Assembly (NCBI GenBank): GCA_043228905.1
Contig: JBHGNT010000011.1
Span: forward strand, 13,082,001 to 13,146,000
Direction: 5' to 3'
Origin: Azolla caroliniana
Taxonomy: Eukaryota > Plantae > Polypodiophyta
Length of the DNA: 64,000 nucleotides
Shown: in pieces, positions 10,542 through 60,597 of the stretch
How positions within the stretch are numbered: the stretch's first letter is position 1
How the letters are laid out: each line of letters begins with the position of its first letter
Translations under genes and position numbers: made by a program
Notes under the pieces: model-generated
Seen by the model: only the letters and a program-made list of their open reading frames with translations
What the model was told of the DNA's origin: nothing
The model's database searches: none

Positions 10542-11755
10542 TGTTCTTGAGATAGGGGTTGACTATATAAGCTCACCTAATGTAACAAAGTCTTCTTTTG
10601 AGCACATCTCTCTTTCTCACTATCTCTCAATGTAATTGTGCATATCTCTAGTTGCGTTGTTTGCTAGATTCATTGACAAGTCCTTAATCATCTTCCACAC
10701 CAACATCTCTACATATTATCTCCATCAAGTGGTATCAGAGTGACTTGCAATCCAACAACAACAGTAGCACAAACCTGAGAAGAGAAGAAACGTTTGAAGG
10801 GAAGGACCATGTCAACAAATCCCCATTCCCAAAGAACATGGCCTCTACATCCGGCACTCGAGTAGAAATCCAAAAGTTCGACGGCAAAAACTTTTCCCTA
10901 TGGAAGGAGATGATGCAAGATGTACTGATAATCCGACGTCAAATTGAGGCAATACGACACAATAACAAGTCAACCTCGATGGCAACAGACCAATGCTGTT
11001 CACTGGAGGAAATAGCCAGGTCGACCATTTGAATGCATCTGGTCAAGAACATCTACTTCAGTACGACCAAAGAGACGACGGCATTTACCCTATCGGAGAA
11101 GCTTTAGGCCGTTTATGAGAAGCAATCCTCCTCATCAAAGCTCATATTGATCCGACAGTTGTTCAAAATGAAGATGAGAGAGATAGATATGCCGACCTCC
11201 CACATCAACACCTTCAACCGGGTGTTATCCGAACTCTCCTCCCAAGGGATTAACTTTGAAGAAGAAGAGAAAGCCCTTGCCTTACTTTTGAGTTTGCTGG
11301 CGAGTTGGGAGGTATTCTGCACGACATTCGCCAATAGCTACCCAAAGCTGAACCTAGATGAAACGATTGGCCAAATCCTCATAGAGGACATTCACCGAAA
11401 ATCGATGGGATCACCATCAACGACTTGGTAGAAGCCCACCACTCGACTGAACAAGCCGAAAGAACCGACCGAAGAAACAGTCGGTCAAGAAGGAGGATCG
11501 ACAATTGACATCAGTCGAAGTCGAGGAATAGTTGATCAAGTGCTTTTTGCACCGATTGCAGAAAGTCTGGTCACGATGCCTCTTACTGTTGGTCAATCAA
11601 GAAGAAGGAGAGCGGTCGACAATTCGAGCAGAATCCAAGAAAATTCGACTCGAACCGTTCTCCCACTGGAAATCAAGTTAATGTTGCCGAATCCTGGTCG
11701 GGAGAAATCCTCTCATTAGAGGAATCATCGACTAGTGAAGTCTTATACAACGCGC

Positions 11756-12674
11756 TGTCGGGGTAGTTGTGGTTCGTGCGGCGAAGTCGCGGGGACTAAG
11801 GTCAAGGGGGAGTTGAAGGAACTTTTATAAGGCTTGCGCACAAATGTTAGGAAGATTAAGGATAAAAAGAATAAGAGTTTAAAGTAATGTGTGTGAGAGA
11901 GAGACAAGTATAGATAAAGGATAGAGACAATGTATGATTCAAGAAAGAAGATTGAGACAAAGTATGATTCTAGAAAGAAGATTGAGACAAAGTATGATTC
12001 AAAGAACAAGGGTATATGATATAAACATGATGTATATTAACAATATAATATTTTACCAACTTTACAATCCTCGATCGCAAACTGAACACATTCTCTATCG
12101 ACCCTTGATTTGAACCCACGACCTCAACTTCGAAACGAGAGGTTCTCCACCCAATGAGCTAGTCTTCTTTAATTGATTGTATTATTTTCTCACTCTCTCT
12201 TGATTCCTTGATTCCCTTTTGTTTTCCTTTCCCCTCTTTTTATAAGTATTTCCATGCATATGGTAATGTCATGCATGTAATGCATGAGTTACATCTGATG
12301 CATGATCGCCATTTGGCGCACATGCATTGCATGTGATGCATGATAGCCATCATGCTCATTTGAGCTCCCATGTATTGGGATAAGTATAATAATGGATATA
12401 ACCCTAAAACAAATAACCTAGCTTAGTGGTGTATGGTTTGTGCTTGATATACAAGGTTGAGGGTTCAAGTCCCTCAATTTTACTTAATACAATATTTAAG
12501 TTTATTCTTATATAGTGAAACACATTCTTGACAACATTTCTAAAAACAAATAGCCTACCCTAGTGGTATATACATTGTGCTTGGTTTATAAGGTTGTGGG
12601 TTCAAGTGTTTGAAATATTATTGAATTCAATATTAAAATTTATTTTTATATCGTGAAGCAAATCCTTCACGACA
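11756..12674 (-). mobile_element. Solo LTR of the TGTCGTGAAG-terminus Gypsy group
   Basis: TGTCG...CGACA termini; 4-bp TSD GCGC; removing it restores the host frame EVLYNAQDAHTWLLDS. Confidence 0.88.
12415..12481 (+). other. tRNA-like cassette (A box, anticodon arm, T arm, TTTT) inside a solo LTR
   Basis: TAGCTTAGTGG at 12419; TTGTG-CTTGATA-TACAA arm; GAGGG-TTCAAGT-CCCTC arm; diverged second copy at about 12555-12611; no convincing acceptor stem. Confidence 0.6.
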
Positions 12675-13557
12675 GCGCAAGATGCGCATACGTGGCTACT
12701 AGATTCCGAAGACACATTTCATGTCACCCGGAATATTGAATGGTTTTTGAACTATTCGGCTAGAGCCAACGGCACAATCCGACTAGTCAATGGGCAGGAA
12801 TGTAAAATTGCCAGAATTAGCGATGTGTCAATTCGACTGCCAAATGGCAATACAATCGTCCTACACCAAGTTCGGCATGTACCCGTGTTGAAGAGGAGTT
12901 TGGTCTCCATCGGCATGCTAGCCGAAGCTGGGTATAGAATGACTCTCAACAAGTGATCATGGATGATCAACCAAGGAAATCTGAAAATCGAGAATGGATA
13001 CAAGTACAATAACTTGTATCCTCTAATGGCTATCAATTTAGAAGGGGTCGTGAACATAGCCGAATCTTGTCACTCGAACCTATGACATGGCCTTCTCGGC
13101 CACATGTCACAAACCGAACTGGACCAGTTGATAGCGATTAGCTACATGCCGAAGCTCCAGACAAAGATGGACTTCTATGAGCATTGTCGCTACGGGAAAC
13201 AGACCCAAAGTTCTCACTCTCTCTACTACTCGCTGGTACATCATCCCCTAGAATTGGTCCACATAGATATATGTGGACTAATGCCTGAAAGGTCACTAGG
13301 AGGCTCCCGGTACTTCATCATATTCATAGATGACTGTACACGGAAGGTCTGGGCCTACTCGATTAGGTCGAAAGGAGAAGCACTCGAGGTCTTCTCTCGG
13401 TGGTTATCCGAAGTGGAGAACTGACCAGGACACCGAGTAAAGACACTTCGGTTGTTGAGGCCACATTTGTAAATAGCCCCTAAAATTATATATGTATAAA
13501 TATAACTAGGGCAACACTGTTCTATGGGAAAAGTTGTTGCCGTTGTTGTGTGTGTTG

Positions 13558-13589
<32 letters not shown>

Positions 13590-14434
13590 CAAAAAGCATT
13601 TTATGTTGTAACCGCTAGTTGCCGAAGGCAGAGCTCGAGGTCATTGCCTCTGAGTCTCACATTGTAATACCTCTCCTCACAGTGATCCTATTCGGAGTTC
13701 AGTGAACTCCCGTGGTTTCCCCCTATTAGGGTTTCCACGTTAATATCCTGTGTCGTCTCATTGTTTTTTGACTGTGTAAGTGCATTCATCATTATTTTAT
13801 TTCCATTTCTTCCATTGAGTGATTAAGACTTGGTTTTGGCGCCACTCCAATCGAGTTGTTTGGCCCTATGCACAAGCACTATTTGCAAAAATATGGTATC
13901 AAAGTGAACAACAAAGGAAAGAAAATGGAGGATTCATTCGGCGGCATGTTCAAGCTCACCGGCTCCAACTACCCTATATGGAAGTCGAAGATGAGGGACA
14001 TGTTGGTGATCAAAGATCTCTGGGCGCCGGTACAGTTTGGAGATGCAAGACCAGAAAAAATAGATGCTCTGAATAATGTTTCAAAACAAGAATGTTGTAA
14101 ATCGAGTCTCAGTATTTCGGAAGCTGGTGAGCCTCAGAAAGCTCGTGAGACTCATATATCAAGATGGCTCCAACATGGCGGAGCACATGAATGCTTCGAG
14201 GGGCTTATAAATCAAACAAGCTCGTTGGAGATACCTCTAGTCAATGAAGTACTTGCGTTGTTGCTGCTCAGTTCTGTCATGAAGACATACATCTTGGCTT
14301 ATCATGACATTCATCTTGGCGAACCAGGAATCGAACCCATAACCTCTTGGTTTACATATTGTACTTTAACCATTGTAATAACATATGTGAGATGTAATCA
14401 TAATAATTATATGTTTAGTTATTACGAGATATTT

Positions 14435-14541
14435 AGAACATTCTAGATTATTCTAGAATGTTCTTGAATATTTCATGATTATATTTATTATTATTATTAT
14501 TCATAAATATCTAAAATATTCTAGAACATTCTAGAATACTC
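14435..14541 (+). promoter_or_regulatory. Heat-shock-element arrays upstream of the LTR TATA box
   Basis: GAAcaTTCtaGATtaTTCtaGAAtgTTCttGAA and TTCtaGAAcaTTCtaGAA; TATAAATA at 14552. Confidence 0.65.
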
Positions 14542-14825
14542 CATAAGGGCCTATAAATAAGAGTCCATACACTCATCACAACTCATTCGGTTCAACACCA
14601 GTCTTTAGCCCTTAGCCTACTCCTTGTAATCTTCTTTCTCGTAATATAATCGCATTCCCATTTCTTATCTCTCACTTATACTTTTCTCTCTCTCGCACTC
14701 TCTCCCTCTTTCACTCTCTTTTGCTATCACTATCGCTATCTCTACCGCTCTCGCCATCTCTATCGTTATCGTTATCTCTATCGCCATCGCTCTCTCTCTG
14801 CTTCCTACTCAAGAGTCACGACAGT

Positions 14826-14836
14826 TTGAACCGAAT
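14826..14836 (+). promoter_or_regulatory. Self-priming PBS of element D
   Basis: TTGAACCGAAT is the exact reverse complement of ATTCGGTTCAA at 14585-14595, 33 nt after the TATA box. Confidence 0.8.
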
Positions 14837-14908
14837 ATTTCTTTTCCCTTTCTCCAATAACCCTAGCAAGCTTTCTTCTTTATCCTTCTTCCTTTTTCCC
14901 CCGCGGTT

Positions 14909-16036
14909 ATGGAGTCGGTCAGCAAGCAAGAGTATATGCGTGTCCTTTCGGAGCTCGATATGCTCACCACTAAGTTTGTGGCATTAGAGCAAGAAAATCA
15001 AAGGCTACTCGGGGATCTTCAACAAGTCAGTACTGAGAAAGCTCATCAATATGAGGAGTTATCACAACGGGTTCATCAACTTGAGGCTACTATATTAACA
15101 TTACGAGAACAAGCGGCGGGGGTTCAAAACTCCCCAAGGGAACCAAAGATTAGCCTCCCTGCCAAGTTTGATGGTACCAGATCTCTCTTTTGAGGTTTCC
15201 TGAATCAAGTTTGTTTGGTGATTCAGTTACATCCCAATCGGTATCCAACTGATGCTGCCCGTGTGGGATTAATAGGAACCTTGCTAAGCGGTACAGCGTT
15301 AGCATGGTTTGCACCACTTCTTGAGAAGAAATCACCATTACTGGAGGATTTCGAGGCATTCGTTAAGGAGTTTCAAGCTAGTTTTGGAGATACGGATAGC
15401 ACTAGGACTGCAATAAACAAGATTCGAAGACTCCGACAAGGAGATCGTCCCGCTTCAGCTTATGCCGCAGATTTCCGTCTCTTGGCATGCGACATCCCTT
15501 GGGATGAGGCAGCCTTAATGGATCAATTCCGTCAGGGTTTGCGTAACGATGTCAAAGATCTTCTTCTTACTTTCCATGAAGATCCAAAGTCTCTTACTGA
15601 AGCTATTAGCCGAGCTGTGCGATGTGATAATCGCCTATTTGAGCGACGTTCTGAACGTCAACAAATGTTACGCCGCCAACCGGAACAGACATACGCTTCT
15701 ATAGTCGCCACACCGCCACAAGGTTCTAGACCCGTTACGAGGGATGGTCCCACTCCGATGGAAATAGAGTCGACACAACGTCGAGGGCCCTTATCAGATG
15801 CTGAGAAACAACGACGTCGGGCGCATCGCCTATGCCTCTACTGTGGTGGTCCAGGACATATAGCTGTGAATTGTCCACATAAACCCAGGCGTCAAGTTTA
15901 CCAAGTAAGTGCACATGACAACCCTACATCAAGTTCTACTATCACTTCTAATAACTTAAGTACTAAGCCTAATAGCCCATGCCATGAGAATAGATTTGAT
16001 GTCTTGAGCCAATTAGAGGATGTGTTAAACGAATAA
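14909..16036 (+). pseudogene. Gag of element D (one in-frame TGA at 15191)
   Basis: N-terminal coiled coil; LPAKFDG; LRQGDRPASAYAADF; CLYCGGPGHIAVNC. Confidence 0.9.
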
Positions 16037-19000
16037 GTCCGGCCAAAATAGGAGCCATTTGGTTGGACCATCCTAGTTATGTAGAGTCAGTACCTAGTTG
16101 TGGTTCCATTTCATCAAATCAAGTTAGTAGAGTTTTTTCTGCACAAGTCGAGCTTAGCACATCTACAGGTCATCGCGCCCTAGCCTCTGCCCTCCTAGAT
16201 TCCGGAGCCAATTCTTGTTTCATGGATCGCGAGTTTGCATTGACTCAAAACATCATCTTGAAAAAACTCCCAAACCCAGTAGCTGTAGGAGTCATCGATG
16301 GTCGCCCTATAGCATCAGGAGATATAGTCGAAGAGTCTGAACCAATTCGTGTAGTCCTAGGTAATTTGGCTAGTGTCATCTCATTTAACATCATTAGTAG
16401 TCCGGAGCACTCTCTAGTTCTTGGTCTTCCTTGGTTTGAGTTACATAACCCAACCATTGATTGGAGAAAAAGAACTATTGAAGAGGTCACCGTACAATCC
16501 AAGTCTCTTGAAGCTCCAACTAAGGATCTAGGATCCCCCACAATTTCAACAATCTCTATACATCAATTACGAGAGGATGGAAGAAAGGAAGACATGATGG
16601 TATTTGCGGTTTTAGCAACTCCCTCATCTAGCTCACAAGAATTGGGGGTCCAACTACCAAAGAAGTACATAGAATTCTCCGATGTGTTCGATAAGGTGAA
16701 GGCTAATAGACTACCAGAGCATCGACCATATGATTGCCCAATTGATTTGCAGCCAGGAAAAGAGCCTCCATGGGGACCAATTTATAATCTTTCGCCCACG
16801 GAGTTAGAGGTTCTTCGAGAATATATCAATGAGAACTTGGCAAATGGTTTTATCCAACATTCAAAATCTCCTGCTGGTGCACCCATCTTTTTCGTTAAGA
16901 AGAAAGATGGTACGCTTCGTATGGTCGTGGATTATCGAGGCTTGAATAAAGTGACCGTTAGAAACCGATATGCTCTCCCATTGATCTCAAGCCTTCTAGA
17001 ACGCCTCAGTGAAGCAAAGTATTTCACGAAGTTAGATCTTCGAGGTGCCTACAACCTTGTTCGAATTCGTCCTGGGGATGAATGGAAGACGGCGTTCCGC
17101 ACTCGCTATGGTCATTTTGAGTACACAGTGATGCCTTTTGGCCTCACGAATGCACCAGCAGTCTTCCAACATATGGCGAATGATATTTTTCGAGACTTCC
17201 TCGATATCTTCATCATTGTTTACCTGGATGATATCTTGATCTACTCAAAAACTCAAGAAGAACATGATATACATGTTCGCCAAGTTTTGCAACGGCTACG
17301 AGAGTATGGTCTCTATGCAAAATTGGAGAAGTGTAGTTTCGACCAATGTCAAGTGGAGTTTTTGGGGTACATAGTCTCTTCAAATGGCATCTCTATGGAT
17401 CCATCAAAGGTTCAAACAATTTTGGATTGGCAAACACCACAGTCCGTGCGAGATGTGCAATGTTTTTTGGGGTTCGCAAACTTTTATCGCAAGTTCATCA
17501 AAGATTATTCAAAAATTGTGTTGCCCCTCACTCAACTGACGCACAAGAATCGATCATTTGTATGGAGTATAGATGCGAACTCTGCATTTGAGGGTTTAAA
17601 GCAAGCATTTACATCCGCACCAATCTTAATCCATGTCGATCCAATGAGGCGCTTTATACTTGAAGCTGATGCATCGGATTTCGCACTCGGAAGTGTACTA
17701 TCCCAAATTGGTGATGATGGTGAACTGCACCCGGTGGCTTTTCACTCACGAAAATTTGAAGCCGCAGAAATCAACTATGAGATTCACGACAAAGAGCTTC
17801 TTGCCATTGTGGATTCTTTTCAACAATGGCGTCATTTTCTGGAGGGTTCTTCTCAGCAGATTATTGTCTACAATGATCATAAAAATCTAACATACTTTCA
17901 AAGTGCTCGAGTCTTGAATCGACGACAAGCTCGTTGGGCGCAGTTCTTAACTCGTTTCGATTTTGTAATTCTATATCGCCCTGGGATGCAACAAGGAAAA
18001 GCAGATGCTTTATCTAGACGTTCGTATATGGAACTTCAACCTGGAGAGGCCGCATTTGAAAGCCAAAAGCAAATCCTCTTAGGTCCTGATCGTCTACGAA
18101 TAATGGCAATGCATACCATCAACACACCGGGAGATTCAAGGCTTCTTGATTCCATTCGTGAGCAGATTGCGACTGATGCGTTCGCCCAAGAGGTTTTGAG
18201 CCATATTATCCCAAATCGTGCATCTAGCTCCCAAACTCAAAATCCTCGTCTAGACTACACCCAGTTTAGTTGGCATGATGGGTTACTTTTTCGACAAACT
18301 CTCTTGTAAGTGCCTGACGGTCCTTCTCGACTCAAAGTCATGCAACAATGTCATGACACACCAATGGCGGGACACTTCGGCATCCACAAGACTTTTGAGT
18401 TGATTTCTCGCCGATATTGGTGGCCACGGCTTCGCCATTTTGTTACGGATTATGTTCGTAGCTGTGATACATGTTGCCGATCAAAAAAGCCTCGACATCA
18501 TCCATATGGCTTATTACAGCCAATGCCTATTCCGGAGAGCCCATGGAAATCTATTTCCTTGGACTTTATTACGGATCTTCCACCTTCCAAGGGATTTGAT
18601 TCGATTCTCACGGTTGTCGATCGTTTTACGAAGATGGCACACTTCCTTCCATGCACAAAGACCATTACTAGTCAAGAGACAGCTGATTTACTCATGCGGG
18701 AGGTGTTTCGCCATCATGGTCTTCCGGATGATATTATCAGTGATCGGGGTCCCCAATTCATCTCGAAATTTTGGCGGCACATGTTCAAACTCTTACATAC
18801 TTCTTGTAAACTCTCTTCCGGCTACCATCCAGAGACTAATGGGCAGAGTGAGCGCACCAACCAAACAGTCGAGCAATATCTACGTTGTTTTGTCAACTAT
18901 CAACAAGATGATTGGGTGGATTTACTACCTTTGGCAGAATTTGCTTATAACAACTCCGAGCATTCTTCTACTGGATATTCCCCATTTTTTGCAAACATTG

Positions 19001-19668
19001 GGTACCATCCTCGTTGGACGATGCTTGAACATCCTGAACTCCCAAAAAACCCAGCTGCTGAAGATCGGCTCACTCGACTCCAAGAAGTTCAGGATATGCT
19101 TTTGCATCATTTATGTGAAGCCCAAAACACTCAAAAGAAGATTGCTGACCGTCATCGGCGTGATTCATCGACTACATTTCAAGTAGGCGATCGTGTATGG
19201 CTCTTACAAGGTAGCATTAAAACAACCCGACCTTGCTACAAATTGGATTATCAACGTTTTGGCCCATATGTCATAAGTGGTAAGATCAATGATGTGACAT
19301 TTCGTCTTGATCTTCCTCCTCATATGCGTCTTCACCCGGTCTTCCATGTTTCACTTTTGGAGCCCTACACAACGAGCTCTATTCCGGGTCGTGTTACACC
19401 TCCCCCACCTCCAATTGACGTTTCCAATGGCTCTGAATATGAGGTTGCCGCTATCCTCGACTCCAAGATCATTCGCAACAAACTATACTACTTGGTTGAT
19501 TGGTTAGGCTATACACCTAATGATCGAACATGGGAGCCTGCCGAACATCTTGCCAATGCCTCCGACATGGTTGTTGCATTTCACAACCAATATCCTCATA
19601 AACCAAGTCTGAACTCTTTTCTTCCGACTCGTGCAACTCGTCATCGAAAAGGGGGGATAATGTCATGA
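16030..19668 (+). pseudogene. Pol of element D (one in-frame TAA at 18307), -1 frame relative to gag
   Basis: LLDSGA; YLDDILI; EADASD; HHCC integrase; GPY motif; chromodomain EYEVAAILDSKIIRNKLYYLVDWLGY...TWEP. Confidence 0.93.
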
Positions 19669-22600
19669 AGACATACATCTTGGCTTATCATGACATTCAT
19701 CTTGGCGAACCAGGAATCGAACCCATAACCTCTTGGTTTACATATTGTACTTTACCCATTGTAATAACATATGTGAGATGTAATCATAATAATTATATGT
19801 TTAGTTATTACGAGATATTTAGAACATTCTAGATTATTCTAGAATGTTCTTGAATATTTCATGATTATATTTATTATTATTATTATTCATAAATATCTAA
19901 AATATTCTAGAACATTCTAGAATACTCCATAAGGGCCTATAAATAAGAGTCCATACACTCATCACAACTCATTCGGTTCAACACCAGTCTTTAGCCCTTA
20001 GCCTACTCCTTGTAATCTTCTTTCTCGTAATATAATCGCATTCCCATTTCTTATCTCTCACTTATACTTTTCTCTCTCTCGCACTCTCTCCCTCTTTCAC
20101 TCTCTTTTGCTATCACTATCGCTATCTCTACCGCTCTCGCCATCTCTATCGTTATCGTTATCTCTATCGCCATCGCTCTCTCTCTGCTTCCTACTCAAGA
20201 GTCACGACAAGTTCCCTCCTAAATAATTGGGAGACATTAGTTGTCACTTTGGGTAATGCTGGGCCGGAAGGTAAACATTTATCCCTAGCGAGAGTAAAAT
20301 CAAGCTTGCTGAATGAAGAGGCTCATCGAAAAGACAAAGAAGTGATCTCTGACTCAAAAGCCCTAGTTACCGAAACCGATACACAACGAGGGAGAGGCCG
20401 GAATCGGAGTCCCCTGAACCGGGAAAAATTGGGGACAAGGTCAAAGTCAAGGGGGAGGCCTACGTGCTTCTATTGTGGGAAGCCCGGGCACTTCTAGAAG
20501 AATTGTCAACAATTCCAGATTGACTCCCAAGTATGCTCACTGGGACTATATCCTAGCCAATCGACTAAATAGTAGAGCTTGTTGCGAATAATCTTAGAAT
20601 CAAGGATGGCGGAAACCTCGTACTCAGGTCCATCTTCAAGTTTGATCGGGGGTGGAGGTGGTTTAATACGACTTGGGATGGTTCTATCCTGATAGGGTTC
20701 TAGGAGAGAACTATGAAACACCGGATGTATCTGTAGTTGCGGAGGTAGATCGAGACGGAAAGTGACACCATTAATTTTTTCGATAATACGGAAAGGACCT
20801 AATCACCGATAATCCAAGTTCTCACATGGGCGAGTAGTCTTGATGTGTCGTCGTAGTAGCCATACCCGATCTCCGATATTAAAACAAGATGGAAGCCGAT
20901 GAGGATCTGCGTAAACCTTGTGTGTTCGTTGAGCTTGCTGTAGATGAGTAGATAAATCCGCTTGTATCTTGCAGAGCCACTCCAAACGATTCTTGAGTAG
21001 ATGTGTGTAACTATGGGGTTTCAAATACACACCACTGGGGGTGACAACCCGTGTAAGCATAAAATGGTGTAACCTTTGTCGATGAGTGGACAGAGTTATT
21101 ATATGCAAATTCGGCGAAGTGGAGAATATCTGCTCAGCCATCTTGATGATAGCTTAGAAAGCACCGAAGATATTGCTCCAGTATTTGATTTGTTCATTTT
21201 GCTTGGTCGTTTGTTTGTGGGTGGTAGTTGGAGGAGAGGTTACAAGTGACCTTGAGAATTTTGAAGAGGTGCTTCCAGAATTTCGAGACGAACTGGGGTC
21301 TACGGTTGCTGATGATACTATCGGGGAGGCCATGATGCCGACATACCTCACGCATGACAGTTTCGGCGGTTTCTTCACTGGAGATTTCTTAGTACATGGC
21401 AGGAAATGGGCCATCTTCGTATATCAATCTACTAATGTGAAGATCGCATCGAATCCCTTAGAAACCGGAAGATCTGTGATGAAATCTAGAGCAATGGATT
21501 GCGACGGCTTGCTTGGAATTGGTAATGGTTCTAATAAACCATATGGATGATGCCTTGGCATTTTTTCTCTCCAACATGTATCACAAGTCTGAACAAATTC
21601 TTCAACAAATTGTCGCATATGGGATCACTAGAATTATCGTTGTACTAAATCTAATGTTTCAGTACTAGCAAAATGCCCAGTTGTATATGTGTCATGATAG
21701 TTTTGGACTACTTGAAGGCGACAAGAACCATTAGGAACATACAAGAGTTTCTTAAAGAATAGTAATCCATCATCATGACATTCGAATTGTCGATAGTCCG
21801 TACTTGGTTGTTGCGACTGTGAACAAGATGCTCGAGAGGGATCAATTTGTGCGAGAATGACTTGGGTGAAAGCATCTGTCTTCAAGTCCTCCCATATGGT
21901 AGCGATAACGTGTGAATCTAATGGCATACCGAAGACCTGCGTTGCTTGCAGTCGAGCCGGTCCTAGGATTACTTGCTTTTGGTTATCGAAAGCTGGCTCG
22001 CTGGGATGCGGTGCTAGATACGAGCGCCATGATAATGCATTAGCCTTCCCTTGTTGATTTCCCAGATGATATGTAATTTTGAAGTTGAAACGAGTGCGGA
22101 ATTGGGCCCACCGAGCTTGACGTCGATTTAACACACGAGCATTCTGAAAGTAAGCAAGGTTTTTGTGATCACTGAATACGGCGACTTGATGAGAAGATCC
22201 CTCTAGAAAATGTCTCCATTGTGTAAAAGAGTCCATTATTGCTAATAGCTCCTTATCATGAATTTCATAGTTGATTTCGGCATTGTCAAACTTGCGTGAG
22301 TGGAAAGCCACAAGATGTAGCTTTTCATCATCGCCTTGTTGTGACAGAATGCTACCCAAGGCGAAATCCGACGCGTCTACCTCAATGATGAATGGTTTTC
22401 CCGGATCAACATGAGCTAGAATAGGAGCTGATGTAAATGCCTTCTTACGATTCTCAAAAGCCATGTCCGCTTCTTCAGACCAAACGAACGATTGTCCCTT
22501 CCTGGTAAGCTGTGTGAGAGGTAGAACAAGCTTTGAGTAATCCTGTATAAACTTGCGGTAGAAATTGGCAAATCCTAAAAAGCATTGCACATCTCCCAAC

Positions 22601-22955
22601 GAACGTGGAGTCTGCCATTCTACCACTATTTTGACCGTAGCTGGATCCATGGAGATGCCTTTTGTGGAGATGACATAGCCCAGAAATTCCACCTGGTTGT
22701 ACTCGAAGCTACATTTTTCTAGTTTTGCATAAAGATCATGTTCTCGAAGCCGTTTTAGTACTAACAATATATGAGAATCCTGCTCTTGTTGGGTCTTCGA
22801 ATAAACCAGTAGATCATCCAAATAGATGATCAAACAAACATCCAAGAGATCTTAGAATATATCATTTGCCATGTGCTGGAAGACTATTGGTGCATTAGTG
22901 AGACTGAATGGCATGGCCGTATACTCGAAGTGCCCATATTTGGTGCGGAACGCGG

Positions 22956-46876: not shown

Positions 46877-47075
46877 GGTTACGGAGCCGGATGATGAAGA
46901 CCCCGGAAGACCCCGGTTACGGAGCCGGATGATGAAGACCCCGGTTACGGAGCCGGATGATGAAGACCCCGGTAACGGAGCCGGATGATGAAGACCCCGG
47001 TTACGGAGCCGGATGATGAAGACCCCGGTTACGGAGCCGGATGATGAAGACCCCGGTTACGGAGCCGGATGACGA
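46877..47075 (+). repeat. 28-bp tandem array in U3 of the 5' LTR of I
   Basis: Unit GGTTACGGAGCCGGATGATGAAGACCCC; 6 full units plus fragments. Confidence 0.95.
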
Positions 47076-50600: not shown

Positions 50601-51679
50601 TCGACTCCTTCATGACCGACGAAGGGTACCACAAAACGCAGTCTGATCACTGCGTGTTTGTGAAGAAGTTCGAAGGAGGAGACTCTCTAATACTCCTCCT
50701 GTACGTGGACGACATGTTGATCGTCGGACGGGACCAGGTCAAGATACGGACGCTGAAGAAAGCGCTTCACCGAACCTTCTCAATGAAGGACCTGGGTCCG
50801 GCGAGGCAAATACTAGGGATGCACATCATCCGGGACCGGAAGAAGAAGCAGTTGTGGCTGTCACAGGAGAAGTACGTGACGAAGGTGCTTCACCGGTTCA
50901 ACATGTCGGAAGCAAGACCGGTCGGGTCAACCCTCCCGGGAAACTGCAAGTTGTCCAGCAAGCAAAGCCCCAAGACAAAGGCTGAGAAGGAGGACAGGAT
51001 GAAAGTACCATATGCCTCTGCCGTCGGAAGCTTAATGTACGCAATGGTGTGTACAAGACCGGACATAGGATATGCAGTTGGAGTGGTGAGCCGGTACATG
51101 AGCAATCCCGGCAAAGAGCACTGGAACGCGGTCAAGTGGATACTCCGATACCTGAAGGGCACGGCAAACGTGTGCCTCCGATTCGGCTCCGGTAAGCCCG
51201 AATTCGACGGCTTTACCGATTCGGATATGTCGGCTGATGCAGATACCAACCGGTCCACATCAGGGTATGTGATGACGTATGCAGGTGGAGCTGTTTCGTG
51301 GCAGTCGAGGCTGCAGAAGACGGTTGCGTTGTCAACCACGGAGGCGGAGTACATGGCGGCTGTTGAAGCCGGCAAGGAAATAATATGGATGAAGGACTTC
51401 ATTAGAGAGCTCGGTATCCAGCAGGAGGAGTACCGACTCTACTGCGACAGTCAGAGTGCCATCCACCTTGCGAAGAACGTGGCTTATCACTCCCGGACGA
51501 AGCACATCCAGCGAAGATATCACTGGATCCGGGAAAGGATAGAAGACAAGGAGTTTGTGCTGACGAAGGTCCACACGGACGAGAACGGGTCGGATATGCT
51601 AACCAAGGTGCTCACACCCGACAAGCTGGAAGCATGCCGGAAGAGGATCGGACTGGAGAGACATCCCATGCCGAAGTGA
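47607..51679 (+). pseudogene. Copia gag-pol of I with a single 1-bp frameshift near 49466
   Basis: ORFs 47607-49526 and 49505-51679; ATGCTG-CGCATGC here versus ATGCTGGCGCATGC in J; all catalytic motifs visible. Confidence 0.92.
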
Positions 51680-51751
51680 AGGGGGAGTTTGTTGGGATTT
51701 CGGTCCCTCCGGATGGGATGTCCGGGGATGAATGACAGCAAGCCCGGTTGC

Positions 51752-51996
51752 GGTTATGGAGCCGGATGATGAAGACCCCGGTTACGGAGCCGGATGATGA
51801 AGACCCCGGTTACGGAGCCGGATGATGAAGACCCCGGTTACGGAGCCGGATGATGAAGACCCCGGTTACGGAGCCGGATGATGAAGACCCCGGTAACGGA
51901 GCCGGATGATGAAGACCCCGGTTACGGAGCCGGATGATGAAGACCCCGGTTACGGAGCCGGATGATGAAGACCCCGGTTACGGAGCCGGATGACGA
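51752..51996 (+). repeat. 28-bp tandem array in U3 of the 3' LTR of I
   Basis: 8 full units plus a partial unit. Confidence 0.95.
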
Positions 51997-54900
51997 ATGT
52001 ACCCGGAGAGAGATCCGGATGCGGAGACATATTTGGGAATATGTTTGCCAAGAGCCCTTGAGGCTATATTTGTAAATAGCCCGAAAGTCATATGTGTATA
52101 AATATGACTTAGGGCAAACAGTTAAGTTGTTGCTACTTATTTTTTTCTGTTTTTCCACTCAAGAGGAGTGAAGAGTGAGCAGCCGTGAGAGAGAGAGAGA
52201 GAGAGATAGAGCGCGAGAGAGGAAGAGGTAGACGCCTCTGTGTATTTCCGCCGCCTGTGGCGAGGACAGCGAGCTCAAGGTCGTCGCCTTGCAGCTCGCC
52301 ATTGTATACTTCTCTGTATAGTGTTGGCTTGGAGTCTTGTACTCCCGTGGTTTTTCCCGTCTAGGGTTTTCCACGTTAATCCCTGTGTGCTCGCGTTTTT
52401 TGTTTCTCTTTGTGGTTCCTATTTTCTGCTCCACTGATTCGCGCTTACTCGGTTGTGGCCGAGTGGTGAAGGTGAATAGAAGCGTCTATTCCTTACATCT
52501 TGGACCCGCTTCTCCGCGCGGTCCGCCTCGTCTTTCCTTAGTCGGGCACCAGCGAGGCCTTCCAGCATCGTCGGCCAGAACCCGGCTTTGCTCTCCTTCC
52601 AGGCCTCGCTGCCTCCGACCTGAATATCGGCTGATGCCGAGTAGTGGACGGTCTCTGCGTGTCGGGCCGCCGCCTCTTCCATCAGCCTTTTCATTCCTCC
52701 TCGCCCGTCGTTTCGGTTCAGGGTCCTCCGGGTATCGCTGGCATGCACCCGACGTTCCCACAAGTACACTACTCGGCTTCTCAAAGCCTCCACAAAGTCC
52801 CCGCAGTCTTTCCGGATGTGGCCGACCTCGTCGCACCACATGCACCTATTTCCTGCCGGAGGCCGTCGGTCACGAGCCTGTTCGCCGCCTTCCCTCCGAG
52901 CCTAGGCGATCTGGAGATCCTTTACCGCCTGTGTCAACTCCTCCAAAGCTGTTCCCCCGGACGAGCCTCTGACCATGCCGGTAGAAGCCGAACCGGTTTC
53001 GAGCCACTCCCGGGTCTCTTCCCTTCCCGCCTGTGGTATCGGTTCGAGCTTCCTTGTTGCGACAGGACCCGCCCCGGTCGCCCCTGTATCAGCCCCACAA
53101 ATTCTTTTTACCGCGGCCCAGTCGGCCGTCAGCCCGTCTTCGGTTTCCAGTAAGGAGCCCACTTGCTCCCGATCCCGTGCGTCAACCGATTTGACAAACA
53201 GTAGGACACGACTTGTGTCCAGAATGGTCCAATCGAGTGCCGAAAGGCGCGCAAAGCGTTCCTCAAACTCCCGGAGGAGTACTGACGCATTTCTTCCTTT
53301 GTTGGGGGACTCCACCCACTCCATGAAGCCCCGCTTCGAAAGCCGAAGCGCGTCATCCAGCCCATATTTCTCCAGGAGCCATACTTCGAACTCCTCCCAG
53401 GTCCGGCTTTCCGCCCGGACCTCGAGCACCTCCGCATGGATGCCAGGCATCGCCACTCGAGGGAATTTGGCAAGACGCCTCTCTTCCGGAATATCCCTCA
53501 TCAACATCTCCGCCCGGTAGGACGCCAAATAACTCGTGGCATCCTTTCCACTAAACCAGTCGATCGTACCGACGATCGCCTCAATAGCCCTGTCAAGGGA
53601 GCCGATGCCCTCGCGCGCGTTCACTATCTGGTCCACGGCCGAAGCCATGGCCTCTGCAAGATCCGACCCCCTCATCTTCTGCTCCTCTGCCGCCTTGTTC
53701 ACGTCGGGTTCACCAAAGATGTCGCATTACTACGCGCGTGCGTGGAGAAACGAGGCGGGACCACCGGGGTCTTGAACCAAAGAGCAGGTGATAGAAAGGG
53801 AAAGAGAAAGAGAGAGACGCTCGGTTACGTATGAGCAAAGAAACACAGGGACACGGCCCTATCAACGCAGAAGACATGAATGGACACAGAGACAGAGAGA
53901 CACGAATGTTTGTATATTAAAGAATGACAAATAAACAATAGAGCACGCGAGCGGTTACAACCGAACAGGCCGGCGAACAGATGCCGATGCCTGCTGGTCT
54001 GCGCACGAAAGGGGATAGGATGGAGGTGCTGCCGGAAGCACACGGGCGTTCCTCGAAGCAGCGCGAGCCTCCCGAAAACCTGCAAAGAAGAGCGATGGAG
54101 AACGAACACAGGAGAAGCGTTCGGTTTCGGTCCGACAGCAGTTCGTCCTCCTCAATAAAATTCCTCTCCTTTCTCCCCGCGTCTCCCTCTCTTTTATAGC
54201 TTCAAGAAGGGAGCCGTTTCCCTCATTAACTTCCTACCTACCGAATCTAACTACCTAGGATATACCTTTGTACCTAATTCTCTATTATATACATTAAAGG
54301 GCGCGCACGTGTGAAGAGCCGGTTCATGCGCGCTATGCACCGATTACGCTATGGGACGGTTTTCTTCACGACAACGTATGCGGACGCTGGACGATCACCT
54401 TGACGTAATCGTCGGATTTTGTTGATTGCTGTCCTTACGCTATCAGTATATCCAAAACAGGCTTTAAGCTCACTTAAAAACTCTTCAACGAAGATTCCTT
54501 TTCTAACAACGGAGCGAACCATGCCAAAGTTGAGCCACTTAACAACGTGCCTACTAGACCCAATCGTGATGCATCGGTGGGATATCAGGAAGGATGAATT
54601 TGAATGACTAATCGTACATAATTAAGGAATCCTCTAAACTGTGATCACGTTCCATCAAATTTCATAGGATTGCGTACTTGGTCCTTGTTGTTGTAACGCT
54701 ACAATGGTCGCTTCGAGTTGTTGCACGCTGTCGTGAAGATTTTCGTCCACGAGCAGAAACCCGAGCAACGAGAGCCAAAGAGCGATGTGCAACGTTGCAC
54801 ATGTACATAATGTATATGTAATAATAATAGGGGAAAAGGGTATGGTGCTAGAAATGCCCCATAAGATCCCTAAGGTATAAAGGCGATGTGGTCTTGTGCG

Positions 54901-55468
54901 CACATCCACGCGCGAGAGAGAGAGAGGTACTATGCGGTACATAGGTACCTAGTTGTTTGTGAGGAGGTGGGAGTTAAGGGGCCATCAATCTCACCCTCCC
55001 CAAATCAAGGCAAATATCCCCTTTGAATGAAAGGGTATATTTTAGTCTCGTTTTTGTAAACGGCCTTCCCTCCTTGTGCTATAAAAGGAGAGGGAAGGCA
55101 CCATTGTGAGGGTTGCCTATTTTGAGTGTGCGAGGTATACCACATAGGCCGAGCGTTAGGGTTAGGGTTAGGGTTTCTTTGTCTTTTTTTTCTTCATCTT
55201 CGTCGGTTAGGGTTTCGAGTAGTCGTTTGGTGCGGCCTACGCGGCCACCATTTTGTAATCATTCACTTTGTTTTTATATATCTTGTTGATAATCTTGTCT
55301 CCATCTTCCTCTTGTTCGATCTAATCTCTTGTTCATTCTTCTTCTTCTTGAGCCAAGCTTCCAATCCATGTCCGACTCCTTCTCCTCTACTCCTTAGTCC
55401 AAGACCCCCGTGGTCCCGCCCTTCTCCATGCACACGTGTAGCAACGCGACATATTTGTTGAACCCGAC

Positions 55469-58400
55469 GTGAAGAGGCGGCAAGGGAGGAAGGAGATGGA
55501 AGCCGGAAACATCGCGGAAGTAATTACGAGAATGGCAAGGGATTTCGCAAGAAGGAGAGAAAGACGGGAAGAGGCGTACAAGTACGATCGACGTGAGTTT
55601 GATCTATGGGTGTCGTCGGCAAAGGCTCCTGGAAGCGCAATGAAGGCATTCTGGGAGTTCGATCTCCGGTTTTCCCAACTTTTGGTCCGGGATCAAGAAT
55701 CGGTGGGGGCGGACAAGGTCCCACTATTCTTGAAGTCGGTCAACGAAAGGGGGAGAATGGCCATTTTTCCCTACCTCAAAGACAATGAAGGGGCGTACGG
55801 CCTCACCGAAGATTGGAACGAGGTGGAATGGGCGTGCATACAATGCGATGAGAGGTGGTCAGCCACAACGCGGCCCGCGAGCGGCGGAGAAGAGAGAGCG
55901 ACGACCGACTACGCACTACCGCCGGAAGAGAGCTCAACGCAAATCGGTTCGGAGGAGCTCGACATCGAAGCCTTGGTGCGGGAAGCGTACGAGATCGTAG
56001 AGGCACAAATCGAAGCCGAAAAAGGGCTTATTGCGGAGTCGGGGCCGAGCGGATCGGAGGATGAAGAGGCCGAAAGAGAATAGTACATCGGTACCACGGG
56101 AGAGGGTGCGGAGCGAGCCACCCTCTCGACATGCGGAGAAAGATCGACCAAGGACGAGGTCGGGGACGGTGAGGCGGCGATCGCCGGTTCGAGCGAACAT
56201 GAGGGAGTTCGAGCATGGAGGCCCGAAACATCGAGCGGGGAGAAGACGGGCGGTGGTGCCGGGACCTTACGCACACTGGGCCTAGAGACTCTGGCAACCG
56301 GTCCGAGAGCCGGTGTGAGACCTAGACTGATGGGTGGTGGCAGCGGCAAGGCGGGCGTCCACGATGGTGACATGGGAGAGGGTGCGGAAAGAGCGACCCT
56401 CTCGTCTTGCGGCGAATGGACGGCCATGGAGGCCGGTAACTACGGATTCGGGACATGGCGGCCCGAAACATCGAGCGAGGAGGAGACAAGCGGCGGTGCC
56501 GTGACCTTACACACATCGGCCCTAGAGGCACCGGCGGTCGGCCTGATTGCCGGTGTAAGACCTAGAGCAACGGGCGGTGGTGGCGGCAAGGCGGGCAACC
56601 GAGACAACGGTAAGGAGATCGTGGAAGAGGAGGCGGCAAGCATAATTGATGCTTGCATATACAGAGGCGGGGTAGCCACGGACGACGATGTCCGAATGGA
56701 GGTGGCTACGGGCATAGCATTGACGAGCGGCGGCGTTGCTACCTTACACGCACCGGTTCAAGAGACCCCGGCGGCCGGCCCGAGTGCCTACGTGAGACCT
56801 AGGGTAACGAACGGTGGCGGCGGCAAGGCGGGCGACCACGGCGACGATGTGGGAGAGGGTGCGGAGTGAGCGACCCTCTCGACTTGTGGAAAGAGGACGG
56901 CCACGGATGAGGCCGATATCTACGGAGCAATGGACGCCACCTCGAGTGTGGGCGAAAGTTTTGGGACGCGGTTGCCCGAAACGTTCTACGAGGATTTCAC
57001 GAGCATACTCGAGGCTTGCGAAATCAAGGAAGAAGAGGAGACGAGCGGCGGTGCCGCGACCTTCCACACACCGGTCCTAGAGACTCCGGCAACCGGCCCG
57101 AGAGCCGGTGTGAGACCTAGAGAGACGGACGGTGGTGGCGGCAAGGCGGGCAACCAAAATGACGAACAGGAGGTTTGTAGCGGATGGAGGCGAGATCCCT
57201 CGACACCGGGGCCAGAGACTTCGGCGGTTGCGCCCGAGCGCGGACATAAGACTGGAGAGATGGGCGGTGGCCGTGAGGATGAGAGGCCTGGAGTGGGCAC
57301 GTGCAAAAGGACCGAAGGAGAGGTCCAGAGCGGCATCGAGGAGCGAGTCAGGAACCGACCCGACCGAAAGATGAGCGAGGCGGAGCGGAAGAAGAGTGAA
57401 GCGGGGTCCGGTCAACTGGGCCCAAACCGAAGAAGAACCGGCAAGGCCGGATTTGCGCGGACAAACATGTACCGACTGGTTACGATTACGGAAGGGAGCC
57501 GACCAAACCGGAACTCGATCGGCCGAGACCGATGCGAGCGAAGGCTAAGTCAGCATGACTGGAGATCGGGGAGGACGGGTCACAACATGCGACGATAGCC
57601 GGTGAGCGTACTGAGGAGGCCTAGTGGGCACGGTGATCACGGCTTTCTAGAAGACCGAGAGCGAGAGGGACCTTCCACACCCATTCTAGAGACTTCGGCG
57701 GTTTCGGATCAACGTGAGACCGGAGAGACGGTGTGTGGCGACGAGGAGTCGGAGGCCGAAGCAGACAAAGTTATCGGAGCGGGTATCCGGTATGAGATGA
57801 TGGACGAGCGGGTCCAAGATGGCGAGCCCGGGTTGGAACGGGCTACGGTGACAAAGGAAGAAGTGGCCAACGCGGAGGTCGGGTCTACGGCGAATGAAGC
57901 GCGTAACACGAAGCATGCATTACGGTCGGTGAAGGGCCCAAGAACGAGCATGCATCCGAGAGAGCGTCAACGAGGGATTGGAAACGGTGGACCGATTGAG
58001 CCTTTGAGAGGCGAAGACTCGGTGGTGCACCGAGAGTGGGAGGAACCCTCCACACCTACCCGTGAGGCATTGACGGTCGCGGATCGAAAGGAGAACGAAG
58101 AAACGGTGGGTGGCGGCGAGGAGTTGGAGACTGACGCGGAGGTCGGGTCTACGGCGGAAGCGCGACACGAGACGCATGCAATACGGCCGGTGGAGGGCCA
58201 AGACACAAGCATGCATACGGCGGATGGGCGACAACGATTGACCGACAATGACGGTCGGGTCAAGCCTTCGAGAGGCAAGCGCGGGACGAAGGACGGCGCG
58301 GCGAAACACCAAGACCAACGACATGGGCCGAGCGCGATCGGCACGAGCGGAGAGTCATGTCTAGGAAAACGGAGGAGGTGCGTGGAGAACGGAGGGCTAC

Positions 58401-58483
58401 GCACGGGAAGAGAAAACGCGGTGTCCCGAAGGACATGCGAGGCCAATCGGGCCAAGAGGGCGTGGGTCGAGGCGAAGCGGTAA
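55469..58483 (+). pseudogene. Gag-like N-terminus fused to a repeat-rich low-complexity region, about 1000 codons with three stops
   Basis: ORFs 55469, 56315, 56930 and 57602 are in one frame; the N-terminus aligns by eye with G gag (LFLKSV/LFVKSV, GLTEDW/GLTADW). Confidence 0.65.
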
Positions 58484-58931
58484 CGAGAGCCACGAAGAAG
58501 GATGGGGTGATGACACGCTCTACCGCGAGAGAGCACGGCGAACAACGGGGAAAGCCTACGGAAGGCAAGCGCGGAGCGGAGAGAGTCAGCACGCCGAGGT
58601 GCGCGGCACGCAAAGGGCGGAATCCGGCATGCGAACGGGAACGCATCCGGAGGATATATGAGGCGGACAAAGGAAGAGCAACCGGGTTGGCGACGACGTT
58701 CGGGAGGACCGAACGGGGAGGAAAGCACGGGCATCGGATACGGCGGGTCGGATGTAGTCGGTGGTTCAAGGACCCACGGTGGACATGGTGGATCGGGTGG
58801 AGGCAACGACTCGGTGAACATCGTCGAGTGTGGCAGATCGGATGACGCCGACGGTTCGAGACGATTCGGCGAGGATGGTGGACCGGAAGGCGGCGGTGGT
58901 TCGTGTGGACGGGGTGGTCTTGCTCGAAGTG

Positions 58932-59202
58932 GAAGACAAAACCGGGCGGGCCCACGAGGACGCTAAGGACTCGGCCGGTCGTCGTGGCCGAAAATCTCAT
59001 GTTCTCTCCCCTATGTTTTGGCACATACTGGTGGATGTGCGGTTAGGTGGGGGGCGAATGTCGTGAAGACAAAACCGGGCGGGCCCACGAGGACGCTAAG
59101 GACTCGGCCGGTCGTCGTGGCCGAAAATCTCGTGTTCTCTCCCCTATGTTTTGGCACATACTGGTGGATGTGCGGTTAGGTGGGGGGTGAATGTCGTGAA
59201 GA
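58932..59202 (+). repeat. 133-bp tandem duplication of the PPT and LTR start of H
   Basis: TGTCGTGAAGA at both 59059 and 59192. Confidence 0.9.
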
Positions 59203-60597
59203 TTTTCGTCCACGAGTGGAAACCCGAGCAACGAGAGCCAAAGAGCGATGTGCAACGTTGCACACGTACATAATGTATATGTAATAATAATAGGGGAAAA
59301 GGGTATGGTGCTAGAAATGCCCCATAAGATCCCTAAGGTATAAAGGCGATGTGGTCTTGTGCGCACATCCACGCGCGAGAGAGCGAGAGGTACTATGCGG
59401 TACATAGGTACCTAGTTGTTTGTGAGGAGGTGGGAGTTAAGGGGCCATCAATCTCACCCTCCCCAAATCAAGGCAAATATCCCCTTTCAATGAAAGGGGA
59501 TATTTTAGTCTCGTTTTTGTAAACGGTCTTCCCTCCTTGTGCTATAAAAGGAGAGGGAAGGCACCATTGTGAGGGTTGCCTATTTTGAGTGTGCGAGGTA
59601 TACCACATAGGCCGAGCGTTAGGGTTAGGGTTAGGGTTTCTTTGTCTTTTTTTTCTTCATCTTCGTCGGTTAGGGTTTCGAGTAGTCGTTTGGTGCGGCC
59701 TACGCGGCCACCATTTTGTAATCGTTCACTTCGTTTTTATATATCTTGTTGATAATCTTGTCTCCATCTTCCTCTTGTTCGATCTAATCTCTTGTTCATT
59801 CTTCTTCTTCTTGAGCCAAGCTTCCATTCCATGTCCGACTCCTTCTCCTCTACTCCTTAGTCCAAGACCCCTGTGGTCCCGCCCTTCTCCACGCATGCGC
59901 GTAGCAACGCGACAACGCGTAACGCTCGTTCCCTATGTTGTTGTTGCGTCTGCTGCTTCTCTAAGGAGATTTGTTGAAGCTCCCCCAACAGTTGTTGATT
60001 TTCTTTTTCCAATGCGAGAAATTTCTCTTTCAAGCATTGCAACTCCGAGAAAACGGATTGATATTCTTGAGCGCTAATAATGGCCATAGTATGACGGAAA
60101 AGAGGAATAACAGATTAGTATGAAGGGAGGGAGAAGTAAGAAGATAAAAGGAAGAGGAGGAAGGAGACAAAATCGGTTCAAATTGTCAGGAACAATACTA
60201 AGACAGAGAAGTACTGTCAGGAACAATACTAAGATAGAGAAGGAATTAGTACTAAAAGATGAGGATTAGTACTGAGCGAGGTGTAGAACTCTCAATAGAA
60301 GAAAAGAGTGAGTGTGTGTGAGGGAGAGAATGATGATAACAAAAGATATACATTATGTGAAGAGAATATACAGTAGTAGCTAGGAGGCTTAAGACTGGCG
60401 TTGAACTGATTTGGTTCGAAATAATGCCTTGTGCCTCCTTTTATAGTGTCCCTAGGAGTACTCCTGAAGTTTCTAGAATGTTCCAAAGAAATCTGGAATA
60501 TACATCAATTTTCTATAGTAAAACTTAAATGAAAATAATATCCTTCGTATGACAATGTATAGTCTAATGGTCAAGAACTCGAACCATGTTAGATAAG

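What the first reader, a model, noticed from the sequence alone, without database searches (positions are those of the whole stretch)
11752..59918. A Gypsy lineage that appears to integrate at CpG, with 4-bp NCGN target-site duplications
Seen: all four well-resolved insertions sharing the TGTC(G/A)TGAAG terminus have a 4-bp TSD with CG at its centre. These are GCGC (11752/12675), CCGT (23598/24772), GCGT/ACGT (42527/54374) and ACGC (54725/59915); a fifth, GCGG/ACAG (22952/25257), is probable. The Copia and chromovirus insertions here have 5-bp TSDs with no such pattern. The LTR bodies differ, so the preference spans several subfamilies. All targets are other retroelements. Established: most plant LTR elements make 5-bp TSDs with weak sequence preference. 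Inference: the integrase, which shows no chromodomain in G, may read CpG or methyl-CpG and so home into silenced transposons. The sample is only 4-5 sites.
Basis: partly seen in the sequence, partly recalled or inferred. Interest (0 to 1): 0.8.

Follow-up and report, generated by a model that had tools for sequence, protein, structure and literature searches.

The report
Fern retrotransposons that insert at CG
Several jumping-gene families in what is likely a fern insert almost only into four-letter sites with CG in the middle; this habit is already published for the moss Phygy lineage, to which they likely belong, and it likely comes from the integrase reading DNA sequence and shape rather than sensing methylation.

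Summary
At 123 insertion sites of four related LTR families, all 57 two-sided sites have central CG in at least one copy; 51 of 57 show a 4-bp duplication (at most one mismatch), none a 5-bp one. A chromovirus with nearly the same LTR ends makes 5-bp duplications without the motif. The pattern is published: REXdb's Phygy clade (moss) has 4-bp NCGN duplications, a tRNA-Trp primer site and no chromodomain (PMC6317226), all met here; its phylogenetic test could not be run. The host is likely a fern. The motif is tighter than NCGN: VCGB in 105 of 110, matching the T/A exclusion and central pyrimidine-purine step of 4-bp retroviral intasomes (PMC4422553). Homing into silenced elements is not supported: flanks are repetitive in 79% against 71% for ordinary VCGB sites (p=0.09), and CpG is simply denser in this genome's GC-rich, repeat-rich DNA. 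Methyl-CpG reading is untested. The scan met Phygy-like elements in this genome before (e1-10618240), on nesting.

The parts
11752..11755 (.). Target-site duplication GCGC, left copy (solo LTR S1, inside a Copia gag-pol)
11756..12674 (-). Solo LTR S1 (919 bp) of a Phygy-like family; full-length copies elsewhere are 7.47-7.63 kb with Trp primer site
12675..12678 (.). Target-site duplication GCGC, right copy
14275..20209 (+). Control: young chromovirus (chromodomain, no tRNA primer site seen, Tcn1-like), LTRs 14275-14823 and 19661-20209, same TGTCATGAAG start, 5-bp duplication AGTTC
22952..22955 (.). GCGG at the damaged junction of solo LTR S5; the LTR's terminal bases are missing, so these bases are shared between LTR end and flank
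22956..25256 (-). Older Phygy-like solo LTR S5 inside a chromovirus pol, itself interrupted by S2; other flank ACAG at 25257-25260
23598..23601 (.). Target-site duplication CCGT, left copy
23602..24771 (-). Solo LTR S2 (1170 bp); orientation from the primer site and purine tract of other copies
24772..24775 (.). Target-site duplication CCGT, right copy
42527..42530 (.). Target-site duplication GCGT (element G, inside a chromovirus gag)
42531..43184 (-). 3' LTR of element G (654 bp; 27 differences from the 5' LTR)
43185..43197 (-). Polypurine tract of G, abutting the 3' LTR
43180..44415 (-). Integrase frame of G (412 aa): zinc-binding and core domains, SH3-type C-terminal domain, acidic disordered tail; no chromodomain; the frame runs into the LTR
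44416..46814 (-). Broken protease/RT/RNase H region of G; about 0.9 kb shorter than a full-length family copy near 45530
46815..52497 (+). Copia element nested in G, 5-bp duplication TCTTG
52905..53726 (-). gag-region frame of G
53698..53715 (-). Primer-binding site of G, 18 nt complementary to the 3' end of this genome's tRNA-Trp(CCA), 4 nt after the LTR
53720..54373 (-). 5' LTR of element G
54374..54377 (.). Target-site duplication ACGT (one difference from GCGT)
54725..54728 (.). Target-site duplication ACGC, left copy (element H)
54729..59914 (+). Element H, 5186 bp, non-autonomous: LTRs 54729-55451 and 59192-59914 (98% alike), Trp primer site 55456-55473, gag remnant, no pol, purine tract 59178-59191
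59915..59918 (.). Target-site duplication ACGC, right copy

Best explanation
These are Trp-primed, chromodomain-less Ty3/gypsy retrotransposons, likely of the Phygy lineage, that duplicate a 4-bp VCGB target, and their integrase likely picks that site itself by sharp bending of a central C-G step plus base contacts, with no need to read methylation. Steps shown here: 4-bp stagger, central CG, exclusion of T at the first and A at the last position, the same rule in autonomous (G, S1) and non-autonomous (H) families, no chromodomain or second RNase H found. Steps inferred: a symmetric intasome imposes the palindromic rule, as for retroviruses with 4-bp duplications, here narrowed from any pyrimidine-purine step to CG; because CpG is denser in this genome's GC-rich repeat DNA, the rule by itself sends most copies into other transposons; the few non-CG copies arise after insertion by deamination of methylated CG and CHG.
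For: 57 of 57 two-sided sites have central CG in at least one copy, 46 in both; 51 of 57 fit 4 bp, 0 of 57 fit 5 bp; 59 of 66 one-sided sites CG. VCGB in 105 of 110 CG-centred sites against 44.6% of NCGN words in the flanks, p about 1e-30. Serrao et al. [quoted passage not shown] ZAM integrase binds and nicks its CGCGCg target in vitro (PMC2527525 abstract). Flanks are not more repetitive (p=0.089) nor more CG-dense (p=0.60) than those of ordinary VCGB sites; 10 sites lie in DNA with no repeat match, 7 of them with CG density of 2% or less. One decayed copy in 11 of 57 duplications (19%) equals CpG decay between LTR pairs (9 of 48, 6 of 32); all 8 two-LTR elements with LTRs 99% alike or more keep CG in both copies.
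Against: No biochemical test; the residues that read C and G were not identified. Flanks are somewhat more often repetitive than control sites (79% against 71%), and a larger sample might make this significant. Four pairs of independent insertions reuse the same position of a multicopy host against 0.78 expected (p=0.008), so something beyond four bases matters. Fern CG methylation is widespread (PMC9477723 passages), so low-copy targets may be methylated too. In the older family S5, left out of the main count, only 8 of 15 readable upstream junctions keep CG (6 CA, 1 TG) and one pair reads CCAA/CCAG. No Phygy reference sequence was available for a tree.
Confidence: 0.72

Rival explanations
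1. The integrase, or a host partner, prefers methylated CpG, so the element is steered into silenced DNA.
For: Strict central CG; flanks repetitive in 96 of 122 against 332 of 639 random positions (p=3e-8) and slightly above VCGB controls; mutation spectra show that these elements and junctions are CG- and CHG-methylated at some time; Phygy is enriched at liverwort centromeres (PMC12885004 passage) and often nested in Tcn1 in moss (PMC6911290 passage).
Against: No excess over VCGB controls (p=0.089); no methyl-binding, SRA or chromo domain in Pfam scans or the model; no CHG-centred duplicated pair among 57 although CHG is methylated here; ZAM reaches a CG target by direct binding in an animal that lacks CpG methylation (recalled). 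The decay signature shows methylation after insertion, not before.
Confidence: 0.13
2. Two layers: the integrase fixes the VCGB site by sequence, and a separate chromatin or host-factor tether (for example through the acidic C-terminal tail) adds a regional bias to heterochromatin or to hot spots.
For: Reuse of four host positions above expectation; 79% against 71% repetitive flanks; disordered acidic tail 356-412; centromere enrichment of Phygy in a liverwort.
Against: Reuse could come from weak preferences just outside the duplication (C before, G then T after); old insertions are filtered by selection, which also favours repeats; the tail has no recognised motif.
Confidence: 0.25
3. The pattern is an artefact of few sites, boundary calling, copying of nested pairs, or selection.
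For: Searches return only the best-scoring copies (30 loci of 40 or more matches per query); nested pairs can be co-mobilised; one duplicate flank was found and dropped.
Against: 123 distinct sites on many contigs, ends fixed by TG...CA and by primer site or purine tract; the chromovirus treated the same way gives 12 of 12 5-bp duplications and CG anywhere in 5 of 20; empty-site homologues confirm the 4-bp length; independent publication in moss.
Confidence: 0.01

Closest known systems
Phygy clade, non-chromovirus Ty3/gypsy of Physcomitrella patens (REXdb; Neumann et al. 2019, PMC6317226: passages, section 9, supplementary table of lineages)
   Same: 4-bp duplication with NCGN (100% of 186 elements there), tRNA-Trp primer site (81% there), no extra domain, no extra ORF, coding region fills the interior.
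   Different: Host here is likely a fern, not a moss; full-length copies are 6.8-7.6 kb, below the published 7,656-9,968 bp; motif resolved here as VCGB; non-autonomous derivatives of 4-5 kb; no tree against Phygy references could be built.
TatI (and moss Tat) non-chromoviruses (PMC6317226 table; PMC13468544 passages)
   Same: TatI also has 4-bp duplications and a tRNA-Trp primer site.
   Different: Tat carries a second (archaeal-type) RNase H, not found here; no NCGN preference is listed for TatI; about 9 kb.
Retroviral intasomes with 4-bp duplications: PFV, MoMLV, PERV, XMRV (Serrao et al. 2015, PMC4422553: abstract, section 6)
   Same: 4-bp stagger, central pyrimidine-purine step, T disfavoured at the first and A at the last position; PFV integrase is the best structural match.
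   Different: There the preference is a moderate enrichment over all pyrimidine-purine steps; here it is near-absolute and limited to CG.
ZAM errantivirus of Drosophila (Faye et al. 2008, PMC2527525: abstract)
   Same: Ty3/gypsy integrase with a CG-centred target (CGCGCg) and a 4-bp duplication (PMC3276498 table passage).
   Different: Different lineage and host; longer consensus; direct binding shown in vitro there, not here.
Tcn1-like chromovirus in the same window
   Same: Nearly the same LTR termini (TGTCATGAAG...CGACA), also lands mostly in repeats (17 of 20).
   Different: Chromodomain, 5-bp duplication, no sequence motif, no tRNA primer site seen; pol only 26-27% identical.

Membership tests
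Ty3/gypsy LTR retrotransposon | LTRs with TG...CA, primer site, purine tract, domain order protease-RT-RNase H-integrase | tested here: met
Phygy (REXdb) | 4-bp target-site duplication with NCGN | tested here: met
   51 of 57 fit 4 bp, 57 of 57 CG in at least one copy
Phygy (REXdb) | Primer site for tRNA-Trp | tested here: met
   18-nt complement of the 3' end of genomic tRNA-Trp(CCA) genes, 6 of 6 loci scanned are tRNA-Trp
Phygy (REXdb) | No chromodomain | tested here: met
   Pfam finds none in G's integrase or in three full-length copies, finds it in the control
Phygy (REXdb) | No second RNase H, no extra ORF, coding sequence fills the interior | tested here: met
   gag-region frames start near the 5' LTR and pol ends 8 nt inside the 3' LTR; no RNase H1-type hit. 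A stretch of about 300 aa between protease and RT has no match, so a very divergent domain there is not excluded.
Phygy (REXdb) | Placement in the Phygy clade on RT, RNase H and integrase trees (the criterion that defines the clade) | not testable with these tools
   No Phygy reference sequence was returned; named relatives are Riccia (61-66% over RT-RNase H) and Adiantum (66%) proteins
Phygy (REXdb) | Descriptive only: length 7,656-9,968 bp and host Physcomitrella | tested here: not met
   6.8-7.0 kb (G) and 7.47-7.63 kb (S1); host likely a fern. The paper calls size relatively insignificant for classification and Phygy is reported in a liverwort; hence filed as Phygy-like, not as a proven member.
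Tat (TatI / moss Tat) | Additional archaeal-type RNase H | tested here: not met
   RNase H to integrase spacing about 123-128 aa, as in the chromovirus; no room after the integrase
Chromovirus | Chromodomain at the integrase C-terminus | tested here: not met
Methyl-CpG-guided integrase (hypothetical) | Preference for methylated over unmethylated CG targets | not testable with these tools
   No methylome or biochemical data; indirect tests neutral

The most novel reading that the evidence does not exclude
This lineage's integrase selects methylated CG at the centre of its target, making it a natural methyl-CpG-guided integrase that finds silenced DNA without a chromodomain, conserved across mosses, liverworts and ferns.
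Probability: 0.13. Interest if true: 0.72.

Novelty: new member of a known kind. Interest (0 to 1): 0.27.

Why it matters
The CG-centred target is the only strong sequence preference reported among plant LTR lineages, and it is in print for moss Phygy since 2019. What this adds is modest: the habit in a likely fern, the tighter VCGB rule that links it to 4-bp retroviral intasomes, and a first background test that finds no need for methylation reading. A near-absolute four-base rule makes this integrase a good subject for asking how intasomes read bases, and it shows a passive way to avoid genes where repeats are the CpG-rich fraction. If methyl-CpG selection were shown, it would be a new targeting principle.

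Tried and rejected
Terminus TGTC(G/A)TGAAG as lineage marker: rejected, the chromovirus shares it. First automatic junction classifier mislabelled some primer-side flanks and counted two solo LTRs twice; corrected, whose numbers are used. Bryophyte host (my first guess from Riccia hits): rejected by phytochrome. Tat/TatI: rejected for lack of a second RNase H. Search for named Phygy relatives among cluster members gave only one named (Adiantum) protein of any use. PDB search of the protease-RT spacer found nothing. Paper search for NCGN returned kidney-disease papers in the 25 of 93 listed. PMC7466625 (moss RLG families), PMC2864245, PMC10886601 and PMC8282616 (passages) gave nothing on target sites of this lineage. 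Ends of three older Copia elements in the window could not be resolved. Family S5 (25 loci) was left out of the main count because its end was not defined beforehand; its tally is given in the report.
Full report
1. The observation. The four named duplications are in the sequence, directly outside TG...CA ends, and 4 is the only length that fits. They flank two solo LTRs (S1 11756-12674, S2 23602-24771), a broken autonomous element (G, 42531-54373, minus strand, with a Copia nested at 46815-52497) and a non-autonomous element (H, 54729-59914). Uninterrupted homologues of the hosts have exactly four bases between the flanks at all four sites (2 of 2, 9 of 9, 17 of 17, 1 of 1) and five at the chromovirus site (5 of 5). 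The fifth site (S5) has lost the terminal bases of one LTR end compared with family copies; GCGG is present once in several uninterrupted hosts, so it fits but is not clean. All five hosts are retroelements. The shared terminus is not a marker: the chromovirus at 14275-20209 begins TGTCATGAAG, ends CGACA and has a 5-bp duplication.

2. Genome-wide test. The window lies in a 523-Mb assembly. I searched it with the LTRs of H, G, S1 and S2, with G's integrase, and with the chromovirus LTR as control, taking the 30 best loci of each; these are the closest copies, not all copies. Of 300 LTR ends examined in the four families, 104 faced the element's interior, 9 were not reached, 5 were degenerate, 2 were duplicates, and 180 were host junctions, giving 123 sites, four of them the window's own. 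Of 57 two-sided sites, 34 are exact 4-bp duplications, 51 have at most one mismatch, none fits 5 or 6 bp; CG is central in both copies in 46 and in at least one copy in all 57. Of 66 one-sided sites 59 have CG. Overall 116 of 123 show CG and 122 of 123 show CG, TG or CA. Counting one copy per site gives 110 of 123 against a background of 3.5% (genome sample), 5.0% (flanks) or 5.8% (window): p about 5e-120. The control gives 20 sites, 12 two-sided, 11 exact and 12 near-exact 5-bp duplications, none of 4 bp, with CG anywhere in 5 of 20. The older family S5, not in this count, has CG in 8, CA in 6 and TG in 1 of 15 readable upstream junctions among 25 loci, and one pair reads CCAA/CCAG (read by eye).

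3. The motif is tighter than NCGN. Among 110 CG-centred sites the first base is T in 2 and the last base A in 4; 105 fit VCGB, against 44.6% of NCGN words in the flanks (p about 1e-30). ACGT is the commonest exact duplication (9 of 33). Outside the duplication there is only a weak symmetric lean (C before; G then T after). Departures look like later decay: one copy has lost CG in 11 of 57 pairs (19%), the same as CpG differences between LTR pairs of G (9 of 48) and H (6 of 32); all 8 two-LTR elements with LTRs at least 99% alike keep CG in both copies, 14 of 15 overall. G-to-A just after the LTR's CA (9 of 55 pairs) is a CHG-type change.

4. What the element is. The primer site is an 18-nt complement of the 3' end of this genome's tRNA-Trp(CCA). 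Full-length copies are 6.8-7.0 kb (G) and 7.47-7.63 kb (S1), with Gag region, protease, RT, RNase H and integrase, no chromodomain and no second RNase H in Pfam or PDB searches; pol ends 8 nt inside the 3' LTR. G and S1 pol are 59% identical, and only 26-27% identical to the chromovirus. H and the S2 copies examined keep a gag remnant and no pol match. The integrase model (mean pLDDT 70, tail 356-412 disordered) matches PFV and Ty3 integrases. Named relatives are from Riccia and Adiantum. A host phytochrome is 89% identical to Pilularia, 85-86% to other ferns and 76-80% to moss, liverwort and hornwort proteins, so the host is likely a fern, probably a water fern; earlier notes of this scan suggested a fern and prompted that test.

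5. Does it home into silenced transposons? I compared 200-nt flanks with 80 evenly spaced 10-kb stretches. Flanks match a repeat in 96 of 122 sites (79%), against 332 of 639 random positions (52%, p=3e-8) but 336 of 475 ordinary VCGB sites (71%, p=0.089); the chromovirus gives 17 of 20; flank CG density equals that of ordinary VCGB sites (p=0.60). CpG is densest in the GC-rich stretches, so a CG rule alone sends most copies into repeats. Of 27 sites rechecked against a larger set, 10 had no repeat match in 600 nt, 7 of them in CG-poor DNA. By protein similarity 67 of 123 flanks are in Copia (44), chromovirus (12) or own-lineage (11) coding DNA. Limits: the reference sample is 0.8 Mb, so rare repeats are missed; control sites within one stretch are not independent; old insertions are filtered by selection; CG methylation is found in most features of a fern genome (PMC9477723 passages), so unique DNA need not be unmethylated. 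Against a pure four-base rule, four host positions are reused against 0.78 expected (p=0.008).

6. Mechanism. Best reading (0.72): the integrase chooses the site. For four retroviruses with 4-bp duplications, T and A are disfavoured at the first and last position and a flexible pyrimidine-purine step is favoured at the centre (PMC4422553, section 6), largely independent of chromatin for PFV and HIV-1 (abstract). VCGB is that rule with the centre narrowed to CG, which by inference needs added base contacts. ZAM integrase binds and nicks a CGCGCg target directly (PMC2527525 abstract), and palindromic, clade-specific target motifs are general in Drosophila LTR families (PMC3276498 passages). An added regional tether (0.25, compatible with the first) and methyl-CpG selection (0.13) remain open; artefact is excluded.

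7. What is known. Neumann et al. 2019 (PMC6317226) write that Phygy elements have an insertion preference for NCGN and are the exception among plant LTR lineages; their lineage table, read whole, gives 186 elements, 4 bp (100%, NCGN), tRNA-Trp 81%, 7,656-9,968 bp, no extra domain (section 9). Jedlicka et al. (PMC6911290 passages) report 4-bp duplications for Phygy and frequent nesting in Tcn1; Phygy is reported in a liverwort and enriched at its centromeres (PMC12885004 passages). TatI shares the 4-bp length and Trp primer but has a second RNase H (PMC13468544 passages). The clade is defined by phylogeny, which I could not test, and size and host differ, so I file these as Phygy-like. Ten searches listed no paper on target sites of this lineage in ferns or on methylation dependence; the library lacks most subscription papers, and Neumann's per-element file was not seen and may already show VCGB. 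Look-ups in this scan's notes showed none on the CG target; one note (e1-10618240) files nested elements of this genome under Phygy.

8. Verdict. Observation confirmed and extended from 4-5 to 123 sites; interpretation partly supported; a new member of a known kind; interest 0.27.

Noticed in passing
G000:C8:17796786-17823371, C16:4989495-5105657, C5:10105608-10112201: Clusters of matches to the tRNA-Trp 3' end at about 1.2-kb spacing (63 matches genome-wide): possibly tandem tRNA gene arrays. Only six loci were scanned for tRNAs, one from these clusters.
   Followed up: no
window 53716-53719, 55452-55455; L127, L128: The spacer between LTR end and primer site is 4 nt in families G, H and S1 and 8 nt in S2, longer than the usual 0-3 nt (recalled); it implies a longer overhang to be trimmed from one cDNA end.
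   Followed up: no
L002/L005, L008/L019, L024/L054, L109/L134: Four pairs of independent insertions (different family or opposite orientation) at the same position of a multicopy host; 0.78 expected.
   Followed up: partly
right-hand duplication copies genome-wide, e.g. window 54374: G-to-A at the first base after the LTR's terminal CA in 9 of 55 pairs, and C-to-T at the last base before TG in 4: the insertion itself creates a CHG site that then decays.
   Followed up: yes
window 14275-20209 and L151-L180: A very young chromovirus burst: many 5,935-bp copies with LTR pairs 99.6-100% alike.
   Followed up: partly
L093/L094, L095/L099, L107/L106, L111/L110: Young 3.9-4.0-kb deletion derivatives of family S1 with LTR pairs 99.5-100% alike: recent non-autonomous spread.
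   Followed up: partly
window 58932-59202: Tandem duplication of about 135 bp in H that repeats the purine tract and the first LTR bases (59059).
   Followed up: no
L015, L101: LTRs with a purine tract on one side and a primer site on the other: tandem elements sharing an LTR.
   Followed up: no
L286:1460-2914, L288:1056-3185: The Gag region carries weak DUF4100 matches, and Atlas look-alikes include Basidiomycota clusters: a lead to fungal Ylt1-like relatives, not tested.
   Followed up: partly
L206-L285: CpG observed/expected rises with GC content, from about 0.3-0.5 in AT-rich to about 1.0 in GC-rich stretches, although the elements show methylation-type decay.
   Followed up: partly
window 9878-10500: A further fragment of Phygy-like RT on the minus strand, outside the five named sites.
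   Followed up: no
L084 downstream flank: An insertion next to short TTAGGG-like repeats.
   Followed up: no
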